64,000 bases of DNA. Origin: Okamejei kenojei. Lineage: Eukaryota. Where the stretch lies: the NCBI GenBank assembly GCA_035221665.1, contig CM069141.1, forward strand, positions 46,996,001 to 47,060,000, given 5' to 3'. Below are positions 3,876 to 59,899 of the stretch, piece by piece. Under the pieces are notes generated by a model. The model was not told the origin of the DNA. It worked only from the letters and a program-made list of their open reading frames with translations, and did no database searches. Each line of letters starts with the position of its first letter. Position 1 is the first letter of the stretch. A program made the position numbers and the translations under genes.

Positions 3876-4628
3876 GTAAAACTCTGCCTCTGTGCTACCC
3901 TGACCGAATCAATCATAAACTAAACATTGTTGAGTTGTGGCGTTGTAAACAACACTAGGATATTTTGAAGCGATCATTTGAATTCCTCGTGCATACGTTC
4001 AAATTCAAATTCACGAGGAATGTTCGATGGACAGCAGCGGATTTCGCAGATTTCATCAACAAGCCAATTCCTGTCAAAACACATGACGCATCTTCAGGAT
4101 ACATGGAATAATGACATAAGTTACAAACAAGGCAATGCGGATGTTGGTTTACCAAGGGAAGACGTTAAACGCCAGAGTAAATCAATGAGTCAGGCAGCGT
4201 CCCGAGATAACTTGGATAGGTGCCGTTTTCGGGTCTGGACTCTTCCTCATATTGTCTGGTGAACGTCCCGACCTGAAACATCACATATCAAAGGACATAA
4301 GTTGTTGGGTATTTCAATCTCAGAGATCCGACCATCCCTAAATAACATGCCGAAAAATATTTCAGAATGTTACATCATCTTGATCACTGTAAGGTGTCTT
4401 GGAAGAATATTAACCTTCGATTTCACCACGATAAACGCGTACTTCCATTCCAAGTTGGGCTCACTGCAGTCAGAGTAATTTGAAGAATATATCTGCGCAG
4501 TCGTACTCAGTCTTTGGCGCTTCTTCACTTTTCAAACTTAATTCCATCCAAGAAAATGACATTAGTAATTAAATATTTGGTTTGTTAACATTAGCCGGGA
4601 CGTTTATATCTATACAGCAAGTAACCCA

Positions 4629-5779: not shown

Positions 5780-8170
5780 ATGGCGTACCTACGGAGGTTT
5801 CCTTTTAACGTGTTTGCATTCATGCTTCTGATATGTGAACAGGATCTAATTTCCGGGCAAATTCGTTATTCTATTCCCGAGGAAATGGAGCAAGGGGCAT
5901 TTGTTGGGAATATTGCTCAAGATTTGGGACTGAATGTACGGCAATTGTCAGCTCGTAAATTTCGACTGAGCTCCGATGACGGAGGGCGCTACATGAAGGT
6001 TAGTTTGGACAACGGAATATTATCTATTCGTGAAAGAATTGATAGGGAACGTATTTGTAGACAAGCAGAAATATGTACCGTGTCTTTTGAAACGACACTG
6101 GGAAATCCCTTGGAGGTGTACCGCGGGGAATTAGATATTCTTGATGTCAATGACAATCCCCCCACTTTCGGAGATGGCAGCATCGCCTTACAGATATCGG
6201 AAGCGAGTGCACCCGGGGTGCGTTTCCGTCTCGAGAGAGCGGAAGATCCCGACATTGGAATCAATACCGTCTCCGCCTACACGATCAGTTTCACCGAGTA
6301 TTTTAGTATAAAAACACGTAGAACTGAGAGCGATGTTCTCATACCAAGAGTTGCTGTTGGATAAACCTTTGGACCGAGAGCTGCAATCTCTTTTCAGCTC
6401 TTGCTTACTGCGACAGACGATGGCACTCCTCACAGAACAGGCACAGCTCAGATTCTCATTACTGTATTCGACATTAATGACAACGCGCCGGTGTTTGATC
6501 GTGATATTTACAGGGTCAGCGTAAGCGAGGACGCACCACGTGGTACCTTGGTGATGAAAGTCAAAGCAAACGATTTGGACGAAGGGCTGAATGCTGAGAT
6601 AACGTATTCTTTTAGTGATGTTGATTTGCGAAAAGCGCGTAATTTATTCAGTTTAGATCCAGATAGTGGGGAGGTTCGAGTTGAAGGGCCTTTGGATTTT
6701 GAAGACACAAACAGCTATTCTCTTGATGTTCAAGCTGTGGACCACGGTTCACCCGCAATGACAGGACATTCTAACGTGCTGATCCAGGTAAATGACGTGA
6801 ACGATAACGCACCCGTGATTAAGGTGACATCAGCTTCCAACAAAATCCCGGAAAATGCACCTCCAGGTACATTCATAACCTTCGTTGATGTTATGGATCG
6901 TGATTTTGGGGAGAACGGTCAAGTTCGCTGCGAGTTACCCAAGAATATCCCCTTTAGACTACAGACATCGTCGAACAATTATAAGTTAGTTACCAGTGAA
7001 ACGTTGGACCGTGAAGGGATTTCTGAATATCGATTACCAATTTCAGCATGGGACCTAGGGTCACCTTCACTATCCTCTAATAAAACCATCCGCATTACAA
7101 TAACCGATGTAAACGATAACGCCCCGTGGTTTGCTGAAACATCCTACAACGTATATGTGATGGAGAACAATGCACCCGGCGCATCGATTTTCGTATTAAC
7201 TGCACTAGATCCTGATGTGGAGCAGAATTCCTATGTTTCTTACTCTTTTGAGGAAAATTTCATCCAAAATCTACCAGTGTCCACTTACCTGGCCATTAAC
7301 AACATGAACGGTACCATTTATGGGTTGCGGTCCTTTGACTATGAGGAACTCAAAAACTTCCAGATCCATGTACAAGCCCGTGATGGTGGGGTGCCTCCGC
7401 TGAGTAGCAGCGCCATGGTGAATGTGATCGTCCTGGATCAAAACGACAACGCGCCGGTAATCGTTTCGCCTTCACATCAGAGTGGATCAGTAGCAGAGGA
7501 GGGCCTGCCCCTCTCAGCGGGTCAAGGGTACTTGGTCACCAAGATAATGGCAACTGATGCAGACTCTGGTCAGAACGCACGAATCTTTATCAGATGCTGA
7601 AATCTACCGATCCCACTTTGTTCACCGTTACGAGAAACTCCGGTGAAATCAGAACAGCGCGCCGTATTTTGCAGACAGATACTCATGTACACACGCTGGT
7701 CATCTTGGTGAAGGACAATGGGCAGCCGAGCCTGTCCAGTACTGTTACAATGAACTTAGAGTTTTGGAGAACAGTACTGAAGGAATCACCGAAAGCAGTA
7801 CATTGGTGAAAATCCAGGATATTTCTCTGATCCAAATGTTTATTTAATCATCATTTTCAGTTGCACCTCCGTTGCTTTTCTTCTGATCATCGTTCTGTTG
7901 ATTGGCATCAAGTGTAAACAGAACAGAAGTATTATCCAAGGGTATAACACCCCCAGTTATTGCTACAATCGTGGAGATTCGCACGATACGTTTAATGGAA
8001 GACCTGCGATGGAGGAAACGTTACGTTATCCTGGGACAGGCCGGGTAGTCCGCGTGCCGGAACCGCATCAATACTCGGTGTGCATGTCACCAGAGTTAGC
8101 GAAAAGTGATTTTCTCTTCTTGAAGCCACGCGGCGATCCCGTCTCAGGCCTAAAGTCTCAGGCGCAATGA
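5780..8170 (+). CDS. Clustered protocadherin gene 2 (best-preserved copy)
   Basis: ORFs 5780-6364, 6401-7600, 7594-7809 and 7898-8170 tile signal peptide, EC1-6, TM and a tail ending [12 protein letters not shown]. The breaks are single-base indels. Confidence 0.9.
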
Positions 8171-8965
8171 TGGGTAACCGCATGGAAGGGGCATCTTATT
8201 TGGCGGTCATTTAAATCTCGAGGAATGTGTATCATTCGTGAGTGAAATATTTAAGAAAATATTCATTTTGTGTATTTTTTCGTTTTCGTTTAAATAGTAC
8301 ATTTGTTAGTATGGTTAAAAAATATATAACTTTTAGCAAATAAAGTCCCATCGTCTGTGAGTGGGATCTGTCAACTGAGAAATACGTCTTATTTCCTATC
8401 ATTCAACGATGGACAAAAATACACTGCGCTCGGGTCAATTACATTAAGGTGCTGAATTAATTTACTTGCTTAAACTAGAAAATACAGGAGCAAAGTTCGT
8501 CCTTAGCATATTCCATTTGAAGCGCTGATAGGTACAGATGATATAACTAAGTAGCAAACTTAAATGACGGGAATTATATATAAAATGAACCAGAAACACA
8601 CGATGCGGATGCTGATATACAGTACAATATAATACGAGCTGGCGGGAGACTCATCAGATGGGGCACCAAATGTGCAGGGATGTGGACAGATAACCTTTCC
8701 GGTCGCGACGCATTTTCCAAACTGGACTATGATGGTAGAAAGAGGTGAATGAAAGTGGTGAGGCATGTGTCAGCAAGTAGAATTCATGAAAGGAAGAGTT
8801 GGTTGGCGGATGCAAATCAAAGCATAGAGATGGTCAGAGCGGGAGGTAACAGGTGAAAAAGAATGAGATGATGAAAACCGATAAGAAGGTTAAATGAGAA
8901 AGACAATATAAAGCAGGGTTCGTGGCTGGGTATTGGCAATTGAGGGGGGGGGGGGGGGGGGGGGT

Positions 8966-9006
<41 letters not shown>

Positions 9007-9955: not shown

Positions 9956-10550
9956 GACCGAATCAATCCGGATATAAACATTGCTGAGTGATGGTAGTAG
10001 AAACAACACTGGAATATTTTGAAGCGTTTATCTTACTCTCTAGTGCATCAGTGCGTTCAAATTCATGAGTAATGTTCGATGGAAAGCAGTGGATATCCTC
10101 AGTGGCTCCATCAACAAAGTCAAAAGAGCAGATTCCAGTCAGAACACAAGAAGCATCTCTAGTATACAGAGAATAGTGGCAAAAGTTAGAAACAAGGAAA
10201 TGCGGATGCATGTTTACCAAGGAAAGACGCAAAATGCTGGATTAAATCAATAGGTCAGGCAGCATCATCGGAGAACTTCGATGGGTGCCGTTTCGAGTCG
10301 GGACTCTTCTTCATACTGTATGAAGAAAGGTCCCGACCCCAAACCTCACCTATCACAGGACATGGGTTGTTGGATATGGGAATCTGAGTAGATCAGACCC
10401 TCCCTAAATGACGAGCCGAAAATAATCAATTTTCAGAATCTTTTATCACTTTGATCACTGCAAGGTGTCTTTGGAAGAATATTAACCTACGTCTTCACCT
10501 CGACAAACGCATGCTTCCATACCAAGTTGCGCTAATTTTAGTCAGAGTAA

Positions 10551-11848
10551 CAAGCGAGTTCGGTATTCCGAATAACGCAAAGAATCATGGGATTTCTCAA
10601 AGGTCAAACGCTATGAATAAAAATCGAACGAAGCGCTGCAGATTCAGTGAGTATAGGTTTTTCAAGTTTGTATTTTTCAGGGGGCAGATAGAGGGGGCAG
10701 ACACGAGTGGGAGACGGGGGTGGGGAGACGGGGGGGGGGGGAGTTAGATCCGCCTCATCCACAGCCAGGATCGAACCCGCAATTACTGCAGAAACGCCAC
10801 TGGATTTTCCGCCCTCCCCCCCATCGAGTGTCCCAACCCCGCCCGATGGGCGGCCGGAGACGTCCGGACCGTCGGGGCACAGGCCCCCAGGCCCCGCCAG
10901 CGCACAGGAGCGCCAATCCCAGCTCACCCCCGCCTCTCCCTCCGGGCCAACCGACAGCCCGGACCAACGACACTAGGGGCCCCAGACCCACAGCCAGCAC
11001 GGTGAACTCACAGGCCCACAGCTAGCGCCAACTACAACTCAATCCCGCTGCAACTCCAGAGGAACCCGCTCCCCGATGGGCCGTTAAGGCGACAAGTGCC
11101 AGTTCGCCCACGGCCTGGCCGAGCTGCGCTCCCGAAGTACAAGCCAACCCAAGTACAAGCCATCATACGTGCACACCACCCGGTTCTGCCCCTACGGTAC
11201 CCGCTACCACTTCATCCACAACGCCGAGGAGGAGCGAGGGGCCCTGTCTCGCCTGCGTCAGAGCGCCAGCCTGGGCTTGGCCTCTTGGGCTACGCTGCGG
11301 GCAGCTTTCATCCGCGACCTGGAGTTAGAGCTGCCCCGGACTTTGGGTTTGGGGCTGGGCAAGGGAGGGGGCGGAGGTGCTGCTGCCGTCAGCCCCACCA
11401 TTTCCAGCGGGCTCCCGGCCTGCCCATGGCCGGCAGGAGTCCGTCCGCAGACTCTCGGACCAGGACGGCTGCAGCAGCAGCGGCTCCGAGTCGCCCATCT
11501 TCAGCAGGATCTCGGCGTCGGACTGAGGGGAGGTGGGTGGAGGTGGAGTGCTGCAGGTCAACCCGGCGGGACAGGCAGGGCCGAGCTGGAGTCAGCGGCT
11601 GCAGCACCTGCAGGTCCGGGGCTGCCCCGCCAGCCTAGGCCACCCCGGACAGGGACAGGACACCGGGGCGGGGACGGGGACGGCCCAGCAGCAATTCAAC
11701 AGCGCCCGCAGTGACGGAGAGCCGGGCCCGACCCCGACCACCGCCGAAACGCAAGCCTGCACACAATGCAGCACCACCGTTGCCGAGACTGTTTATAGCT
11801 AGTGACCTATCACTCGGGCATGCGCAGTCGGAATACGAAACTCACTTA
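10551..11848 (+). mobile_element. Non-autonomous TIR DNA element (1.3 kb) carrying a host gene fragment
   Basis: Left end caagcgagttcggtattccga; right end tcggaatacgaaactcactta (inverted, 21 bp, few mismatches). Joining the flanks gives cagagtaa|tttgaa, the empty paralogous site at ~4471-4484. Confidence 0.85.
11036..11526 (+). pseudogene. ZFP36: Captured, degenerate ZFP36/TIS11-family (ZFP36L1/L2-like) tandem CCCH zinc-finger fragment
   Basis: Translates across frameshifts to NSSR.., GDKCQFAHGLAELRS..PKYK, FCPYGTRYHFIHNAEEER, RLRQSASL, SDQDGCSSSGSESP and IFSRISASD*. These are the tandem zinc finger and C-terminal CNOT1-binding tail of the ZFP36 family; the exact paralog is uncertain. Confidence 0.85.
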
Positions 11849-11959
11849 TTTGAATATATCTTGGATACTTTGGAATGTCTTCGCCTCTAATTTAATTCCA
11901 ACCAAGATATCAACTGATGCCGAGAAAAGAAAAGGAGATTAGCAATTAAATATTTGTTT

Positions 11960-13030: not shown

Positions 13031-13369
13031 GTCAAAGTGCGAAACAAAAGTCGATGAAAGGTTAAGCAATTCACCATTTTGATGTTCCCAAATGGATATT
13101 GAAGTATCTAAGGTAGACCAATGTAGCACTCCATTGTAGACTCCGCGTGCATTCTCCATGAACGAACCAAAACGCACAGTCTTCAATGTTTTCTAGGGTC
13201 CTGCTTTACGCAGTTATTTATCACGTTTACTTCATCCCCGTTAAAATGTTCTGTAGAAATGTATACCCTTTTTTACTATCTCGAACAAAATATATTTTAA
13301 CCATTATATATTTAACTATGGTTGTACGCCACAATTAAAAGTGTACCGTACAGCTTTAAGAACCGTAGC

Positions 13370-23529: not shown

Positions 23530-23580
<51 letters not shown>

Positions 23581-24773
23581 TTACCAGTGAAACGTTGGAC
23601 CGTGAAGTAATTTCTGAGTATACATTACTAATTTCAGCATGGGACCTGGGGTCGCCTTCACTGTCGTCAAACAAAACTATCCATATTGCAATCACCGATA
23701 TAAACGACAACGCCCCGCGGTTTGCTGCAACATCCTACAACGTATATGTGACGGAGAATAGTGTTCCGGGTGCATCCATTTTCGCACTAACTGCACTAGA
23801 TCCTGATCAGGAGCAGAATTCCTATGTCTCTTACTTTTTTGGGGACAATCAGATCCAAAACCTGCCAGTATCCACTTACCTATCTATTAACCCAATGAAC
23901 GGTACTATTTACGCGCTGCGTTCTTTCGACTACGAGGAACTCAAGAACTTCCAGATCAACGTACAAGCCCGTGATGCGGGGGTGCCTCCGTTAAGCAGCA
24001 GCGCCACGGTGAATGTCATCATCCTGGATCAAAATGACAACGCGCCGGTAATTATTTCACCTTTAGAACAGAGTGGATCAGCGGCAACGGATATGATCGT
24101 GCCCAGTCTGCGGGTCATCAGGTTACTTGGTCACCAAAATAATAGCTACGGATGCAGATTCTGGTCAGAACTCACGACTCTTTCATCAGATGGCGAAATC
24201 TACCGATCCCACTTTGTTCAACGTTGGGAAGATTTCCGGTGAAATCAGAAAAGAACTAGTCGCAACACATTTGCAGTCCGACAATGGTTTACAGACTCTG
24301 GTCATCTTGGTTAAAGACAACGGGCAGCCAAGTCTCTCCAGTACAGTTACAATGAACATTAGAGTTTTGGAGAACAGCACTGAAGGAATCACCGAAAGCA
24401 GTACCTTGGTGATGAATCCAGAAATATTTCTCTGATCCAAAGTTGTTTACTTTATCATCATTTTCAGCTGCACTTCCGTTGTCTTTCTTGTGATTCATCG
24501 TTCTGCTGATTGGCATCAAGTGTGTAAACAGGACAGAAGTATTATCCAAGGGTATAACACCCCAGTTATTGTTACAATCGTGGAGAGTTACACGGTACGT
24601 TTAATGGAAGACCTGCCATAGAGGAAACTTTACGCTATCCCGGGACAGGCCGGGTTGTCCGCGTGACCGGCAACCGCATCAATACTCGTTCTGCCTGTCT
24701 CCAGAGTCAGCGAAAGTGTGATTTTATTTTTCTCTTCTTGAAGCCACGCGGCGATCCCACGTCTCAGGCCTAA
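22233..24773 (+). CDS. Clustered protocadherin gene 4 (second subtype)
   Basis: ggaacaATGgcg start. ORFs 23065-23526, 23595-24242 and 24127-24435 give EC3-EC6. Tail ends tctcaggccTAA. A poly-C run interrupts EC4. Confidence 0.75.
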
Positions 24774-37217: not shown

Positions 37218-37286
<69 letters not shown>

Positions 37287-50850: not shown

Positions 50851-53800
50851 CAATCTTCGAGAACTCGCCATTCTGGTCCGTTATCATTTCGGTTTAGTAT
50901 TTTATTCTTGTTTGCAGAGGGTTAGACCCCCCCCCCCGATAGCAACAACCCACTCGCACATCACATCTCAGCCGACCATCATGTTTACTGTACAAATCCA
51001 CTCTATCGCGTAAATTCCTTATCCATCAATTCCCTACATATGCACCATTTCCATGCAGTGCCATTTAAATATTTACCTCTTCCGGTCTCACCACTACCTA
51101 CTGCAATCTCATTCCGCTTGCTATATTCCCTGAGTTTTTCTGAAATGATTTAGCCTGCTGGTACACTCTAAACGCACTCCATCTGATCTTAAAACGTATC
51201 TTCTAGTTTTGGACCGCCCTACCATTGGAAATGGCTATTTGGCCTAACCCAATTATTTATAATTTGTGCTTACCAGACGTGCATAGCGATAATTCAAATC
51301 CAGCCATTGGCCCATACACCACAGAAACAATGTATCATAATTTGTCCTTCAACAGCCCCTCCAAACCAATGTATTATATTTTATTTGGTCTTACCCTCAG
51401 AGAGATTCCTACTTTTTTTCCTTTACTTCCCATCCTCACTCTTACTGAAAAAATAAGGTAATTGCATTATTTTATAGTTCCGATAAAGGAGCGAAGGCCA
51501 GAATCGTTAATTGTATTTCTTTCGTAGGGTGATATTTGAATCGGTGAGTGTTTTCAGCATTTTCAGTATTGTTGCACACGAAACGCCGTTGACGCTTATC
51601 AGTTTGAGGCACTTGCTTATATAAATAGCGCCGATAGGAGCTTGCTTCTTGTTTGGTGGAAAGAACGATTCGTAATCTCACTGTGGATTTTACTTGTTGA
51701 TTTGGAATGTTTGTGTAGGTTAAAAAAACATGATTCGGTTGATATTATTCTTATTTTAATTAGATTTTCGCTAGTTTCGCGTGGTTCGGTCATTGTAAAA
51801 ACGTTTTTGTTTTGATGGAATATAAAACCCAGGGCTAAATTGATAATGGGGACGTCCAATAGAACCCAATTAACCATTTGGGGCATCAAAAATATTCAGA
51901 TATTTTCAACCAATGATGAACATGACCAAATGCCAATTATTTGTGATTAATATCCTGTCTTCTACAACTTAAAGAACGTGTCCAATTTTACACTTTGCCG
52001 GGATCATGTACGACGTTGAGCATCACAGTTTACTGTATAGCAGAAGATGAAACTCGAATTGTCTTGAATAAAGACAAGTTACTTTGGCTTTGGGATTGTT
52101 CATACTTTCTCGATGATAAATGGCATTTCATACGATAAATGTGGCACCAATAAAGTTTGTGTTATCTAGGGCGCATTACATACGAGGAAAAATAAATGAT
52201 GATTAATAGGTAATTGTACCTTCAGTTGGAAATTGCTATAACGAAACAATAAGCGGGTTCGGTATTTCATAACTGCGGCACGCCCAGGTCATGGGTCTAT
52301 CTGGATAAACATTTTCGCCAAGCTGAGTCGACTGTGTGTGTAACGGACACAGCGTATTCATTTCAATGGGATTTATAAGTAAATGTATCAGTCACATAGG
52401 CCACTGCGCTCGTACACTGCAGGCTGTGAGCACAAATCCACAATTATATCTATTTGAATTACTGACCCAATACAGCACCAGCCTTGAAAACACAAGAATG
52501 CTGGAACGAGAACCGTCAATTAACAAATCCCTGGCATTAGGCTGAGTCACAGCCATTCAAATTCGATATTGATTTACATAAATTACAAGTTGTGGTCAAC
52601 CAATTGCATCCCTATCAGCCAAACAACCTTCCTGGATTGAAGGGAAATGAGGAGAAAGTGCTGTGTGGGGGGTCGGTTGGAAAGTTCAGATTGGATTCGA
52701 ACAGGCTGGTTAAAACTTGTTGTGAGGTGGGTTGACTTAAATAAAGATGCTGTCGCTTTAACCTCTGGGGTTGGTTCCTTGCTCTGTCAGGGTACACAGG
52801 TTAGGAGCTGAAGCCGGGTGACTGGGCGGTAGGAAGATTACAAGAACGTGTTCTCCAGCCATTTTGAACCACTGCCCAAATTAGAGGCTTCACTCAGTAG
52901 TGGGTCGCAGCTCACCAGCTAATGGGATCTGTTCTTGCTGCTCTTCAAAGGAGGCGCCACCCTTCTCCAGAGAGTGGGCAAATGCGGAGCCAACAGTAAC
53001 ATGAGTGGGAGCATTTTCTCAGTCAGGACTTTATGTCGACAGTTGGGGTGGGGGATCTGGGAAAGAGAGATAGAGAGAGAGCTGGCGATGTCAGTTTCAT
53101 AACGACCCATTTTAAAATCCGCCTTCGGCACTTGGCATATGGGCTGATCTGATCTGCCGATCCTAATGCAGAAACCTCCACAAAAACTCTCCCCATCAAG
53201 TGTCGAGTTCACAGTTCGCGTTGATTGTCACTTAACCAAATAAGGATCAGTAAAATTTGAGTTACCATGCAACCAATCTAAGTGAAAAGAACACAAATAC
53301 ACACATAAAATAAATTTAAAAATAAACATCCACCACAGTGGAATAAACATTCCTGTTATATGACGGAAGGCAATACAGTTCAGTCATCTTCCTCTGCACT
53401 TGCTGGTTGCCGATGGTCGATGTCGAAGCCCTTCATCGGGATGATTGAAACGCCGGTGTCGGGACGGATTGGAACAATCGAGCATCAGAGTCAGCCACTT
53501 CTTACTGGAGACCAGGGGCCGGATTTAGATGATGAGAGACCCGAAAGCTGTTCCACATGTGAGGCCCCCTCCGACCCCCCACGATAGAGGAGATGGAGAT
53601 GGTCCACCAGATTGACACTGATTTGCAGCCGAGCGTGGGCCAATGAGGTAAGGGGCTGGAAAGCTGCACTCTTTATTTATTTATTTATTGCTAGTGTCGT
53701 GTTATTGGCTTAAAACACTCTTATTCTCGAAATGGAGGGCAAGGAAAATTTACTGAAGGGTTGTTTTAGAGTCCACTTAGTGCTTTGTGACAGTGCTCAT

Positions 53801-54180
53801 ATGTAAAGAAAAGTCTATGAAAATCTGTCAAAAATATTATACACCTTGCAGGCTCTCACTTAATTTTTGAGTTGCCAAATGACAGTTTAGGTGGTCATTT
53901 AAAATGGCCTTGCATGAAGTGTGTGATAATGTGCTCGGACTGAATGCGAAGCTACCAGTCCGAACTCTATGCTCAATGAAGCATTCCCAGCTTATTTCTC
54001 TGCTTCAAATAAAGTCACAAACTACAAACATATTCACAATTAAGACTGATATATACAATGACATGCATCCAACTTATAATACAGTATCTCAACTCTTTTT
54101 ACAGTTGCAATGAATGCAATTTCTATTATTTTTTTCCATTTCCAAACAAATATGTGGTTGGCTTTTCAGCATATGATCAA

Positions 54181-54630
54181 ACCTCGGTGAGACCAAGCGC
54201 AGGGCTTGGTGATCGCTTCGCACAACACCTCCACTCAGTTTCGCATTCGCCAACCTGACCTCCCTGTGGCTCAACACTTCAACTCCCCCTCCTCTAATTC
54301 CGAATCTGACCTTTATGTCCTGAGCCTCCTCCATGCGCCCAGAGTGAGGCCACTGCATATTGGGAGGTGCAGCACCTCATATTTGCTTGGGTAGTTTTCA
54401 ACCCAGCGTTATGAACATTGGCTTTTCTAATTTTCAGGTTGTCCTTGCTTCCTCCCTCCTTCTCCTCCCATTCCCAGCTCTCCCACAGCCAACTGTCTCC
54501 AACGCGTCTCTTTTTTTTCGTGCATCCCCCACGACATCAATCTGAGAAGGGTCTCGACCCGAAAACATGTATTAATTTGCTCCATAGATGCTGCATTAGC
54601 CGCTGATTTTCTCCAACTTTTTGTTTACCA
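54181..54630 (+). mobile_element. Penelope-like element 3' fragment (GIY-YIG endonuclease end plus terminal repeat)
   Basis: GETKR..LGDRFAQHLHSV..QPDLPVAQHFNSPS, followed by ctgagaagggtctcgacccgaaa. Confidence 0.75.
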
Positions 54631-55350
54631 ATGGGATCTCACAAACTAGCCACATCTTCCATCTCCTCCCTGTTGGCTTTCCACAGAGACCGCTCCCTCC
54701 GTAACTCCCTGATCAATTCGTCCCTTCCCACCCAAACCATCCCTCTCCTGGCACTTTCCCTTGCAAACGCCGGAAATGCTACACTTGTCGCTTTACCTCC
54801 CCCCTTGAACTCAATTCAAAGGACCCATTCAGTCTTTCCAGGCTGCGGCAGGGTTCACCTGCACCTCCTGCAACCGCATCTATTGCATCCACTGCTCGAG
54901 ATGTCAGTAGCTCTCGATTGGTGAGACGAAGCATAGACTTGGTGATTGCTTCGCCCAACACCTCTGCTTGGTCCGCAATAACCAACCTGATCTCCCGGTG
55001 GCTCACCACTTCTACTCCCTCCACATTCCAAATTCGACCTTTCTGTCCTGGGCCTCTTCCATGGCAGAGTGAGGCCCTCCATAAACATTGGAGGAGCAAC
55101 ACGTCATATATTGCTTGGGCAGTTTACACCCCAGCAGTAAGAACATGACATTCAATTTCAGGCATCCCTGCTTTTCTCCTTCCCTTCCCAGCTCTCCCTC
55201 AGCCCACTGTCTCTGCCTCTTCCTTTCTTCTTCCGTCCCCCCACCCTCACATCAGTCTGAAGAAGGGTCACGACCTGAAACGTCGCCTATTTCCTTTGCT
55301 CCATAGATGCTGCCTCACCCGTTGAGTTTCTCAATATTTTTTGCTACCAT
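54631..55350 (+). mobile_element. Second tandem Penelope-like fragment with minimal hammerhead ribozyme motif
   Basis: LAFHRDRSLRNSL, PCKRRKCYTC, IGETKHRLGDCFAQHL; CTGAAGA-aggg/ggtc-ac-gacct-GAAA at 55257-55280. Confidence 0.75.
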
Positions 55351-55354
55351 TCAA

Positions 55355-55565
55355 ACAAGTTCTGTTTATCCCACTTTCCTCACCCACTCCATACACATTA
55401 GGGGCACTTTTACAGAGACAAGTTAACCTACACAGCCAATGCATCTTTAGGATGTGGGAGGAAACACAACACGGGGAGAATGTGTAAATTCAACACAGAC
55501 AGTGCCCAAGGAAGGATCGAACACAGATCTCTGGCGTGTGAGGCAGCGTCTACCAGCTGTGCCAC
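55355..55565 (-). mobile_element. tRNA-SINE fragment
   Basis: ggatgtgggaggaaac..acggggagaatgtgtaaa..ggatcgaaac..tgaggcagcgtctaccagctgtgccac. Confidence 0.6.
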
Positions 55566-55714
55566 TATATTTTGTTTTCCAGCACACAAAACAATTATAC
55601 GTTGATAACGTTGGTTACTAACAACATGAAAATATCAATTTTCAGTCTTAAATCTCCAAGTGACGCTATGTCCCCCATTTACAGCTACTGTATGATTTAA
55701 TTAAGTTCAAGACT

Positions 55715-55880
55715 ATGTGGCAGTACATTGACCATAAAGTTGCTGCCTAAAAGTGCCAGAGACCAGCAATTTGATCCTGATCATTTGTGCTGTCTGTACG
55801 GAGTTTGCTCCTTTTCCCTTTGATCGCATGGGTTTTCTCCGGGTGCTCTTGTTTCCTTCCACATTCAAAGGTGTGCATGA
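55715..55880 (+). mobile_element. tRNA-SINE 5' half (3' part at ~56360-56450)
   Basis: gttgctgcct..gccagagacc..gatcctga..gctgtctgtacggagtttg..ggttttctccgggtgctc. Confidence 0.6.
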
Positions 55881-56094
55881 ACCTATTTCAGACCCAACCA
55901 AAACGTAATATTTTCCTTTTGTCCAGAGATTCTGTCTGGCCTGTTGAGTTACTCCAGCTTTTTGTGTCTATTTTCCGTTTAAACCGGCATCTGCATGTTC
56001 CTTCCTACACACACAATACATCCGATAGAACTTTATTAATCCCAGGAGGGAAATTGTGTCGTGTGTATTAGTGAATAGCGTGTGAATAATATTC

Positions 56095-56115
56095 ACACAC
56101 AACACACACAACACG

Positions 56116-56176
<61 letters not shown>
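56095..56176. repeat. (CA)n microsatellite
   Basis: Direct observation. Confidence 0.95.
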
Positions 56177-56614
56177 CATTTATATATTTATATAATCATA
56201 TTATAAATATACACCATTTTTGTTTTCGCATTTATCACAATTATTTAAGAGTACTATGTTTAATATTCTGTTGTGCTGCTGCAAGTAAGGAGATTCATTG
56301 TTCAAACTGGGACATGATAGAATAAAACACTCTTGGGCTTACTCCACTAATGTGGGGATAGAAGTTGTGTGTACGGGCGATCGGTGGTCGGCGTGGACTC
56401 GGTGGGCCAAAGGGCTTGTTTCCATGCTGTATCTTTAAATTAAACTAAAATCAATAAAACAAGAGGGAGGCTAAAGAAGGGTTTCTACCCGAAACGTCAC
56501 CCAATTTCTTCTATCCAGAGTTGCTGGCTGCTCCGTGGAGTTCCCCCTCATAATTAAAGCATGGAATAGTCTTCACTCTAGTTACCCAACCAGACGCAAC
56601 TAAATTTAGGGTAG

Positions 56615-56799
56615 TAAACGAAGAAACTGCAGATGCTGGAGAATCGAGGGTTACACAAAAAGCTGGAGAAACTCAGCGGGTGCAGCAGCATCTAAGAGGC
56701 GAAGGAGATAAGAAGGGTCTCGACCCGAAACGTCGCCTATCTCCTTCGCCTCTTAGATGCTGCTGCACCCGCTGAGTTTCTCCAGCTTTTTGTGTAACC
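56615..56799. mobile_element. Young palindromic Penelope-associated mini-element with ~15 bp target-site duplication
   Basis: 64 bp perfect inverted repeat (56647-56710 / 56738-56801); flanked by ctaaatttagggtag (56600) and ctaaatttaaggtag (56800). Confidence 0.75.
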
Positions 56800-57000
56800 C
56801 TAAATTTAAGGTAGCTCTTTTTCCCCAAGAACCCTTTTTTGCTTAAGTCTAAGCCAAGAGTCAAGAGAGTTTTATTGTCATATGTCCCAGATAGGACAAT
56901 GAAATTCTTGCTTGCTGCAACACAACAGAATATGTAAAACATTGATACAGAACAGGAGATAAAAGTTCAGTGTGTTTATATTTACATAGACCATTATATA

Positions 57001-58029
57001 TAGCAATGTTACAAAATTTTGAGATTTAAAAAATCAAGTCTGCAATTTATCCCATCAGATAAAGCATTAAAAAGAAGTTTAATTTGACACCCAATTCACT
57101 TTCATATCTTCAGTATTAAAAAAGTTATGGCCATTTTAATACTCGGGAAATTAGCATCTTGTTCCCCATTGCCTTTCTATTGACTTACTCAAAAGCTGTG
57201 ATCTAGAACAGTCAAAAGCCCATAACTCTCTTAAAAATTAAGATAACTCAATGAAATGTTCAGTTATTATAGATTGAAGCATCTGAAACAAAAATATATG
57301 AAACAATTCTTACTTGGATGACCTGAAATTAAGCATTAATTAGTTAGTTATCTAATTGTAGCTAATTACAACATTCAATTACATCTAAACATCTATCCAC
57401 TTCTTAAGAAAAGACAAACTTTTTTAAATTGCCTAAATAACATTCACACAATAATCTACAATATAACATGATTTTTAAATCTCATTTTCATGAATTTATA
57501 GGCCAAATGGAAGGAATTTAGTGTTTAATGCCTGTCAATTAATGGCCATTTAAATCAACTTGCGAGTGGGTTTTAGTGGAATGCGCTGGATTGGAACGTT
57601 GCGGTTTGCGCTGAGTTTAACCCACAGTCGGTATGAAAAATACAGCCGGTTCATACATTTTTTTGTCCCCTTTTCGCAACATGAAAATTTGATTAAAATG
57701 CTTCCTAAGAACCACGGTTTTTATGTAAAAATAAACTCTGTACCTTATTTTATCGCATACGTTAGGTCCGTTCTGCTGTCGGCGTTCAGAAGATGATTTT
57801 TAAACTACTCTAGTTAATAAATAATCTAGCGTAGTTTAAAAATAGCTTCATGAATGCAACGTCGGAGCGATTTCTCTTTAGCGACGAAATCGCCCGACAT
57901 GGATCGATTTGGACTGTCTGGGGAAAAACGGCATTTTAAACCCGCCCCCCTCTGAAAGGCGCCAAAGTCACGCACACGGGGAGCGGCAGAACTGCAGCGC
58001 CGCTCAAGGTAGGTATTGTAACATACCTA
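57001..58029. mobile_element. Non-autonomous Academ-like DNA transposon
   Basis: TAG..CTA termini, imperfect TIR tagcaatgttacaa / ttgtaacataccta, and a 3 bp ATA on both sides. TAG ends with a 3-4 bp TSD are Academ hallmarks. Confidence 0.6.
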
Positions 58030-59899
58030 ATATATATATACAATAAAATAAACATATAAAATGCAATAGTCTGATATTGTTCAACCCTCCACCACCTCCA
58101 GTTTAAATTCCATTTAGAATATTTACAGGGAGGACCAGGAAACCAGAAGCAAGAGTTACTGCAGGGAGTTACTCCAGATCCAGGGTCAGGGAGTGATTCA
58201 GCATTGGTTTTCAGCGGTCGCAGCGAGGCAGCGATGGGAGAGCAATGGCGGCCCATATATCCCAAAATTCAAAGCGAGGTAGAAAGTGCCCAGCGCCGAC
58301 TAGTTGCCGTGGCAATGCGTATGGCGCATGGCGGCCGATGATGGCTGGGAGGACAATCTGTGGGTTGTGCGCATGTGCAGGGAGGAGGATTGTGCTGGCC
58401 GTAGCAGTGCCACATGTGCAAGGCAGCCTGCCGTGCCAGAGAGAGAGAGAGAGAGGAGAGAGATAGAGGGGCGTGGCCCGGCCAGAGTTGAATGGAAGGT
58501 GTCCTACCTTGGCCGAAGGCTGCCTAGATTTTGACGCCCTAGGATTCAGCCTATGAAGCTAGTGGTAATCCGGCTCGCGAGCCCCCCCCCCCCCCCCCCC
58601 CCTAGATCTCGAGGCCCTAAACTTAAGCTTGTCAAGCTTATTCGTAAATCCGGCCCTGCCGGGAGACCGTGGGCTTCGCAGTTGTTAAAGTCCACAGGGC
58701 CCGTGAACGGAGCTCTTCTTCTGGCGATCCACGGCTCCACGCTGTTAAGCACGCGCCGCGACTTGAAACTCCGGGCAGGTCTCCAGGAAAGGCCGCGCCA
58801 CTCCACGTTGTCAGGCCGCAAAAGGGACGCGGAGATGCAACATGGAGAAAATCACATCTCCATTGAGGTAAGTGACTGAAAAAAAGTGGGCTTCGGGTAA
58901 CACCTGCATAAAGAGCCTCTGTTAACAAGGGCTGGCAAACTGTGCTGGTTAACTTACACTGGGCGAGATGCACCGCAACCACCGCAAACTTGGAACAGCA
59001 CAGACCCTCCACCCAATCTATCCAATAATGAAGGGCAGTCATTTCGCAGGTAAATGTCTTATATCGGATTGGCGGCTCCTTCACAGGACCAACCCCGTAC
59101 TCAGTTTTCCTCGGAGATGAATCTTTGCCTTAACGGTACATTCACACCACCTGGAATAAGGCATCAGCCCACATCACACTGATACAGTCGCTGCCTGCCT
59201 CAGATTAAATATATTTTTACATATAAATTATGAATAAAGATAATAAAATATTTCAAACACAAGTACTATTTTCTTATTCAGTGGCAAACACATTAAGGAT
59301 TCAATGAAAATAATAAATTCTTTAACTTTTGGAATATCTCACATTTGCAGATTAATGAACTGAACTAGAACTGGGACTGTGGAAGTAGTGTGTGAACAGC
59401 AGAACAAGAAAGGAGGCTGTTGGGTTGACAGAATTCTAGATTACTTCCTTGGTAGAATAGTTCACAATTTATACAGTTTATACAGCGCTGCGTTCGCTTT
59501 TAAAAACAATCCGAATGACTTTGACAAATCTCATAATTCCTTGCGTTTATCAAAAAATACCGAACTCGCTTATTGGAAAGAGAGAAAAATGAAACAGAAT
59601 TTCAAGATAAATACCAATTCAAAAATTCACCAAATTTCCCGCGCTACACCTCACACCAATTTACTATGATTCCCATAATACCCATCGGTGTCTGCTGGAT
59701 TATGTACTTGTGAACCGGCTGCACAACAACAGCAGCCCACCTGACTCGTGCTGTGTCAATAAATTCGGCTTGATTTGGACGTGATGAAACGTTTCTCCAA
59801 GAATCACCCTGCAAACAGGAATATTTGGGCAATTGAAATTGGCCAATCGAAAGCGTTATGTTCGAAAACTCCTTCTCCAATATCAAGAAATGGTTTGAT

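What the first reader, a model, noticed from the sequence alone, without database searches (positions are those of the whole stretch)
10551..11848. TIR transposon that has captured a ZFP36/TIS11 zinc-finger gene fragment (Pack-type element in a vertebrate)
Seen: a GC-rich 1.3 kb island in an AT-rich spacer, bounded by 21 bp inverted repeats and absent from the paralogous spacer (empty site cagagtaa|tttgaa at ~4471). It has no transposase but carries recognisable ZFP36-family coding sequence from the NSSR lead-in through both CCCH fingers to the terminal IFSRISASD*. Known: ZFP36 proteins are ARE-binding mRNA-decay factors, and gene-fragment capture by TIR elements is well documented in plants (Pack-MULEs) but much rarer in vertebrates. 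Inference: this is a transduplicating DNA element that moved a host regulator fragment into the Pcdh cluster.
Basis: partly seen in the sequence, partly recalled or inferred. Interest (0 to 1): 0.85.

Follow-up and report, generated by a model that had tools for sequence, protein, structure and literature searches.

The report
Skate transposon carrying broken ZFP36 fragment
A small non-autonomous DNA transposon in a skate-like genome picked up the back half of the host mRNA-decay gene ZFP36 and appears to have been copied to several places, a rare vertebrate case of the gene-fragment hitch-hiking known from plants, although this copy is a dead fragment.

Summary
The element is real: 10551-11848, 17/21 TIR, clean empty site, no transposase. 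It sits in A|AT|T, as does a second same-family element at 52250-59572. That means a 2-bp AT duplication or a blunt AA|TT insertion, an ISL2EU-like target site.

The cargo comes from a skate-lineage ZFP36-family gene (117/143 aa identical to a Rhinoraja protein). It starts only at about 11080, late in finger 1. The claimed NSSR lead-in is not ZFP36, only 4 of 8 zinc ligands remain, and there are a stop and 2 frameshifts.

New evidence: two Leucoraja erinacea gene models on contigs of different size (139.7 and 88.0 Mb) share this element's non-ZFP36 arms. One has the 5' arm and junction. The other has the junction and 3' arm and ends on the same stop codon inside the transposon's subterminal DNA. 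So the chimera was very probably mobile.

This is a multicopy Pack-TIR, a known but rare kind in vertebrates (4 cases among 281 unique Pack-TIRs in Tan 2021). The other copies' TIRs and TSDs could not be seen, because I had proteins only. The cargo here cannot make a working protein.

The parts
10550..10551 (.). left copy of the putative 2-bp target duplication (AC, for AT), preceded by A; on the blunt-insertion reading 10551 is the first TIR base
   Evidence: empty site gagtA-AT-Ttgaa at 4471-4484
10551..10571 (+). left TIR (17/21, or 17/20 if the AT duplication is excluded)
10572..10638 (+). left subterminal transposon DNA, homologous to the matching end of element B
   Evidence: 75.6% over 90 nt including the TIR; without the TIR, 0 of 2000 shuffles reach the score
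10679..11079 (+). GC-rich 5' arm of unknown origin, not ZFP36 coding sequence; holds an imperfect tandem duplication of about 100 bp (about 10874-10961 / 10976-11077); from 10863 on it is shared with L. erinacea model P0006
11080..11525 (+). captured ZFP36-family coding fragment (donor residues about 119-289): end of finger 1, broken finger 2, C-terminal region; one stop (11085), frameshifts near 11377 and 11454, four in-frame deletions
   Evidence: 117 of 143 aligned residues identical to P0002
11526..11779 (+). GC-rich 3' arm, probably the donor's proximal 3' UTR (inferred; donor DNA not available); no poly(A), polyadenylation hexamer or ARE; shared with L. erinacea model P0039
11780..11827 (+). 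right subterminal transposon DNA, homologous to element B; model P0039 reads into it and stops at the same TGA (11803-11805)
   Evidence: 1 of 2000 shuffles reaches the A-B score
11828..11848 (-). right TIR
11848..11849 (.). right copy of the putative AT target duplication, followed by T
4471..4484 (+). empty paralogous site in the preceding protocadherin unit's spacer
52250..59572 (-). element B: same TIR family, opposite orientation, A-AT ... AT-T flanks, 7.3 kb, no ZFP36 cargo, no transposase detected

Best explanation
A multicopy Pack-TIR. A non-autonomous cut-and-paste element of a family that inserts in A|AT|T lost its interior. It took up GC-rich host DNA, including the 3' part of a skate ZFP36-family gene, most likely by template switching during repair or replication (inferred). 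A transposase acting in trans on the TIRs then moved the chimera to several loci, one being this spacer between two protocadherin variable exons. Each copy has since decayed on its own. This copy cannot encode an ARE-binding protein and is most likely inert. Shown: TIRs, empty site, cargo identity and lesions, a cargo-free relative, and arms shared with two other loci. Inferred: the capture mechanism, the TIRs/TSDs of the other loci, the transposase, and neutrality.
For: Clean insertion against an empty paralogous site, with AA outside both left ends and TT outside both right ends of elements A and B. Both ends are homologous to a cargo-free relative beyond the TIR. The cargo is closest to skate genes (117/143 and 120/143) and less close to Pristis (98/136), Mobula (94/132) and sharks (78/139, 81/141). 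It carries the GLGKGGGGG stretch seen only in the two skate-type intact proteins among the 8 intact chondrichthyan-type rows, so capture postdates the skate lineage. P0006 aligns to 10863-11258 (87/124); its non-ZFP36 part scores 193 against a shuffle maximum of 85 (0 of 60). P0039 aligns to 11076-11796 (148/230); its 3' part scores 202 against a maximum of 53 (0 of 60). P0039 begins MGR exactly as this element does, where the donor has FCR. Its last 10 codon positions match 7 of 10 exactly, including the stop, and the other 3 are one base away, inside transposon subterminal DNA. The two models lie on contigs of 139.7 and 88.0 Mb. Multicopy Pack-TIRs lie far from their parent and tend to capture GC-rich DNA (PMC8277862).
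Against: The other copies were seen only as predicted proteins. Neither reaches a TIR: P0039 stops about 22 nt short of it and P0006 starts about 220 nt inside the left transposon end. No TSD was seen for either. Three further searches found no more copies: 1 hit (the query itself) among 3703 candidates; 1 among 122; and none new among the best 150 of 4689 representatives. The in-frame cargo is not resolved as sister to the two Leucoraja models in the tree (open polytomy, 80/96). The cargo lies within what appears to be one exon, so DNA capture and RNA capture cannot be told apart by intron loss. The window's species is not known, so one Leucoraja model could be the orthologue of this locus.
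Confidence: 0.72

Rival explanations
1. RNA-mediated capture: a 5'-truncated ZFP36 retrocopy landed inside the element, and the element then transposed with it. The mobility is the same; the first step differs.
For: The cargo is 5'-truncated, in one orientation, and consists of coding sequence plus probable 3' UTR. Reverse-transcriptase remnants occur in the window. PMC8277862 notes one such ambiguous case (ARF6 in MER20).
Against: There is no poly(A) run, AATAAA or ATTTA after the stop; the only AATAAA and A5 lie in the left transposon end. No direct repeat beyond chance flanks the cargo (longest 11 nt; 55 of 500 shuffles reach it). The 3' arm is only about 250 nt and 72% GC.
Confidence: 0.15
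2. Single capture without further transposition: the other loci are segmental duplicates or orthologues of one chimeric insertion.
For: TIRs and TSDs of the other loci were not seen. Only 2 other loci were found. Most vertebrate Pack-TIRs are single-copy (PMC8277862).
Against: The two Leucoraja models sit on contigs of different length and differ in sequence, so at least two loci exist in one species. This copy has its own clean insertion site. Single-copy Pack-TIRs mostly lie near their parent, and no intact ZFP36 gene was seen in this window.
Confidence: 0.1
3. Assembly chimera or chance juxtaposition of repeats.
For: Raw reads were not available. The window holds long poly-G runs and fragmented protocadherin frames.
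Against: The same junctions occur in two independent Leucoraja loci with different lesions. TIRs, subterminal homology and the empty site all agree to the base.
Confidence: 0.03

Closest known systems
Multicopy Pack-TIRs of animals (Tan et al. 2021, PMC8277862), e.g. hAT-N8_XT carrying CAPSL 5' UTR in Xenopus; Ssk-FB4 in Drosophila
   Same: Non-TE host sequence between TIR ends, GC-rich, far from the parent, apparently in several dispersed copies.
   Different: The carrier is not hAT or Tc1/mariner by target site (87% of their cases are). The cargo is about 450 nt of coding sequence of a regulator plus about 650 nt of arms, against a median of 224 bp. It is older and decayed. The word 'shark' does not occur in that paper's main text; its supplementary lists were not checked.
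ISL2EU group of PHIS transposons (Han et al. 2015, PMC4482050)
   Same: A|AT|T target site at both elements in the window; short TIRs within the reported 6-259 bp range.
   Different: The TIRs begin AA, not the usual GG. No DDE/THAP/HTH or YqaJ frame is present. ISL2EU was not detected in elephant shark (PMC9179366).
Pack-MULEs of plants
   Same: Transposase-free TIR element carrying rearranged GC-rich gene fragments.
   Different: Short TIR and at most a 2-bp duplication, against long TIRs and 8-11 bp TSDs (recalled, not from a call). No Pack-MULE was found in animal reference genomes (PMC8277862).
Chondrichthyan ZFP36-family gene (P0002, Rhinoraja longicauda, labelled 'ZFP36L2-A-like' by NCBI)
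   Same: 117 of 143 aligned residues identical, including a skate-type glycine-rich insert.
   Different: N-terminal 118 residues absent, 4 of 8 zinc ligands lost, one stop, two frameshifts, and the C-terminal motif shortened by a 9-residue deletion.

Membership tests
Pack-TIR (Tan 2021) | non-TE host sequence flanked on both sides by ends of one TIR transposon | tested here: met
   both ends homologous to cargo-free element B; ZFP36 cargo between them
Pack-TIR (Tan 2021) | parental copy identifiable | tested here: met
multicopy Pack-TIR | several dispersed copies share the same transposon-cargo junctions | tested here: met
   P0006 and P0039 share the 5' junction; P0039 reads into the right subterminal DNA; contigs of 139.7 and 88.0 Mb
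multicopy Pack-TIR | each copy has its own TIRs and target site | not testable with these tools
   no eukaryotic DNA collection; met only for the window's copy
ISL2EU | A|AT|T target, 2-bp AT duplication | tested here: met
   3 of 4 junctions exact, the fourth AC; empty site A-AT-T; formally equal to a blunt AA|TT insertion
ISL2EU | TIR usually begins GG | tested here: not met
   all four ends begin AAG; feature from PMC4482050 section 5, which says 'usually'
ISL2EU | DDE/THAP/HTH transposase and YqaJ frames in the autonomous partner | not testable with these tools
   0 Pfam families in 6 frames of B and no transposase family in 6 frames of A; autonomous partner not found
Spy | AAA|TTT target and GGANNNNG terminus | tested here: not met
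   sites are TAA|TTT and CAA|TTG; termini (T)AAG (features from PMC4122938)
Pack-MULE | long TIRs and 8-11 bp TSD (recalled) | tested here: not met
   20-21 bp TIR; the empty site allows at most 2 bp
processed retrocopy | poly(A) tail and own TSD | tested here: not met
   either could have decayed
processed retrocopy | intron loss | tested here: inconclusive
   the cargo begins at residue about 119; the family's single intron lies near the N-terminus (recalled), so no exon junction is spanned
functional ZFP36/TIS11 protein | two intact CCCH fingers in an open frame | tested here: not met
   4 of 8 ligands, stop at 11085, two frameshifts; tandem-finger binding described in PMC5095909 passages

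The most novel reading that the evidence does not exclude
Skates host a Pack-MULE-like family, built on an undescribed ISL2EU-related A|AT|T transposon, that repeatedly captures GC-rich host exons. The unexplained 5' arm would be a second cargo, and element B may hold another. The family spread a ZFP36 fragment genome-wide, and some copies (P0006 keeps an intact second finger and is annotated as a gene) are transcribed and could act on ZFP36 or on neighbouring genes through RNA or exonisation.
Probability: 0.15. Interest if true: 0.75.

Novelty: new member of a known kind. Interest (0 to 1): 0.52.

Why it matters
Capture followed by repeated transposition is the rare class of Pack-TIR in vertebrates: 4 cases, in frog and alligator, in a 100-genome survey (PMC8277862). 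This looks like a further case, in a cartilaginous fish, with coding sequence of a conserved regulator as cargo and a carrier whose target site points to a group not detected in elephant shark. It gives a natural series of copies for testing the capture mechanism. It also shows that at least two NCBI 'ZFP36-like' models in little skate are probably transposon-borne fragments, not family members. The copy here is dead as a gene, which limits biological impact.

Tried and rejected
Searches for more copies. The out-of-frame 3' part of P0039 and the 5' part of P0006 returned only the queries; P0006 against all representatives returned generic zinc-finger proteins. These searches see only copies annotated as proteins in the same frame and length range, so they do not bound copy number.

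NSSR lead-in, and the 5' arm as a direct or inverted ZFP36 N-terminus: rejected, all at shuffle level.

Origin of the 5' arm: Pfam in six frames gave nothing above noise.

Transposase in A or B: none.

Second cargo in B: an exon-like stretch at 58955-59150 (minus) gave only E 0.74 to a C4orf45 homologue and E 0.46 to an unrelated chain (2 of 3 frames tried against PDB), and nothing in Pfam. It stays unresolved; no structure-atlas result was obtained.

Accession numbers and cluster members of P0006 and P0039 could not be looked up.

Donor paralogue: the tree places it in a chondrichthyan clade apart from ZFP36L1 (99/100), but no named full-length ZFP36 or ZFP36L2 row was included. The finger domain scores higher to TIS11d (126 bits) than to TTP (110 bits) while sharing some TTP-type residues, and it lacks the PF04553 domain listed for the ZFP36L1 rows. 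Unresolved; ZFP36/TTP orthologue is my guess.

Literature: zfp36+skate+transposon gave 0 papers. Of 25 listed skate/shark papers (2,168 matched), none contained ISL2EU. Searches listed nothing on this element. The library lacks most subscription papers, and Repbase/Dfam could not be queried, so the family may already have a library entry.

The bacterial genome scan and the phage/plasmid collections were not used, as irrelevant. Metagenome and viral contigs stayed unchecked.

Full report
Observation. The region 10551-11848 is a 1298-bp island of GC 0.64 in flanks of GC 0.42. Its first and last 21 bases are inverted repeats matching 17 of 21. The spacer is a duplicate of 3899-4478 (76% identical), where the site is empty and homology continues on the right. 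The surrounding tandem units are protocadherin exons with broken frames. The element lies about 2.9 kb after the open frame ending at 7600 and about 1.5 kb before the next unit, which starts near 13350. Pfam finds no transposase in its six frames.

Target site and family. The empty site reads gagtA-AT-Ttgaa and the filled site reads gagtA-AC-[AAGCG...CACTT]-AT-Ttgaa. This is either a 2-bp AT duplication with one changed base or a blunt insertion at AA|TT; the two readings cannot be separated. A TIR pattern search gave 5 matches in the window against 0.84 expected (0 of 100 shuffles reach 5). One (41012, three mismatches) is probably chance. Two define a second element, B, at 52250-59572 in the opposite orientation, with exact A-AT and AT-T flanks. 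Beyond the TIRs, A and B are homologous at both ends (0 of 2000 and 1 of 2000 shuffles), which fixes the transposon parts of A at about 10551-10638 and 11780-11848. B has no ZFP36 sequence and no Pfam hit in six frames. A|AT|T is the ISL2EU target site (PMC4482050; section 5 read whole, passages, and the first 30 of 41 ISL2EU places in supplement 1). ISL2EU TIRs usually begin GG, however, and these begin AA, so I call the carrier ISL2EU-like by target site only. Spy (AAA|TTT, GGA termini; PMC4122938 passages) does not fit. ISL2EU was not detected in elephant shark (PMC9179366 passages). Passages of PMC12730594 and PMC4455052 added no terminal consensus.

Cargo. A search with the frame at 11088 returned 53 proteins among 1239 candidates, led by skate and ray ZFP36-family proteins. 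Frameshift-aware alignment gives 117 of 143 identical residues to Rhinoraja P0002, 120 of 143 to unnamed P0001, 98 of 136 to Pristis, 94 of 132 to Mobula, 78 of 139 and 81 of 141 to two sharks, and 68 of 143 to Anolis ZFP36L1. A glycine-rich insert is shared only with the skate-type proteins. The donor is therefore a skate-lineage gene, and the host is presumably a skate (inferred; the window's species was not determined). In a 25-row tree the cargo groups with the skate-type proteins and the two Leucoraja models (80/96, unresolved within), inside a chondrichthyan clade (99/100) apart from ZFP36L1. Whether that clade is ZFP36/TTP or another paralogue was not settled. About 18% amino-acid divergence suggests roughly 8-10% nucleotide divergence if neutral (my estimate), so the capture is old.

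Homology starts at about 11080, in the second half of finger 1. Upstream, the donor's first 118 residues score at shuffle level on either strand, and the ungapped codon comparison collapses, so the NSSR lead-in is a look-alike. Of eight zinc ligands four remain. There is a stop at 11085, frameshifts near 11377 and 11454, and in-frame deletions of 3, 6, 5 and 9 residues; the last removes part of the conserved C-terminal motif. ARE binding is mediated by the tandem fingers (PMC5095909 passages), so this copy cannot yield a working protein.

Other copies. Two of the 53 hits are NCBI models from Leucoraja erinacea, on contigs of 139,679,016 (P0006, 147 aa) and 87,982,229 bases (P0039, 243 aa). P0006 follows the element from 10863 to 11258 (87 of 124 identical), through the non-ZFP36 5' arm, its internal tandem repeat and the junction; its first 87 residues score 193 against a shuffle maximum of 85. 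P0039 starts with the same MGR as the element where the donor has FCR. It shifts frame after finger 2, runs through the 3' arm (score 202, shuffle maximum 53) and ends on the TGA at 11803-11805, about 25 nt inside the transposon's subterminal DNA; 7 of its last 10 codon positions are identical and 3 are one base away. Of the 197 proteins held, only P0006 matched the 5' arm and only P0039 the 3' arm convincingly (the other rows had E 0.002 or worse on low-complexity stretches). Both keep the finger-2 cysteines that this copy lost, so each copy has its own lesions. Against over-reading: these are protein models, neither reaches a TIR, no TSD was seen, and three further searches found no more copies. 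One model could also be the orthologue of this locus, though two loci in one species remain.

Mechanism. The best reading is capture inside a non-autonomous element, followed by transposition in trans to several sites and neutral decay (0.72). The lack of poly(A), polyadenylation signal, ARE or a cargo-flanking repeat favours DNA-level capture over a retrocopy (0.15), but intron loss cannot be tested because the cargo appears to lie within one exon (intron position recalled). A single capture plus segmental duplication gets 0.10 and an artefact 0.03. The origin of the 400-bp 5' arm is unexplained.

Comparison with what is known. Tan et al. 2021 (PMC8277862; parts 1-2 of 10 and passages read, supplements not seen) report 370 Pack-TIRs in 100 animal genomes, 87% on hAT or TcMariner, 13.4% with exonic cargo, and only four (1.4%) multicopy, in frog and alligator. 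Multicopy cases lie far from the parent and favour GC-rich DNA, as here. Their supplementary lists may bear on whether any cartilaginous-fish case is known. My searches (listings and abstract starts only, apart from the papers named) found no description of this element, but repeat libraries could not be queried.

Verdict. Interest 0.52. The bolder reading, a serial exon-capturing ISL2EU-like family with expressed copies, has probability about 0.15 and would deserve 0.75.

Noticed in passing
window 52250-59572 (-): Second element of the same TIR family, 7.3 kb, with exact A|AT|T flanks and what look like nested repeats; no transposase by Pfam.
   Followed up: partly
window 58955-59150 (-): Exon-like stretch inside element B with acceptor- and donor-like ends; only a weak PDB match (C4orf45 homologue, E 0.74). 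A possible second captured fragment, unproven.
   Followed up: partly
window 10646-10678 (+): GTGAGT followed by a pyrimidine tract ending in CAG just inside the left end, in the protocadherin sense; could allow exonisation of the cargo.
   Followed up: no
window 10874-11077: Imperfect tandem duplication of about 100 bp in the 5' arm, also visible in P0006, so it predates the spread of the copies; source unknown.
   Followed up: partly
window 11132-11163: 16-nt tandem duplication at the lead-in of finger 2, next to the deletion that removed its first cysteine.
   Followed up: no
window 1-49000: About eight tandem protocadherin-like units, 68-86% identical, most with fragmented reading frames; pseudogenes or assembly indels.
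   Followed up: no
window 8942-9006, 23532-23581, 37221-37285: Long G/C homopolymer runs, at least the first two within or beside protocadherin units.
   Followed up: no
window 56642-56806: Near-perfect 69-nt inverted repeat (97%) with a 27-nt loop, made of a repeat found elsewhere in the window, inside element B.
   Followed up: no
P0006 and P0039 (Leucoraja erinacea): NCBI models labelled ZFP36L3-like and ZFP36-like are probably transposon-borne fragments, not true family members.
   Followed up: partly
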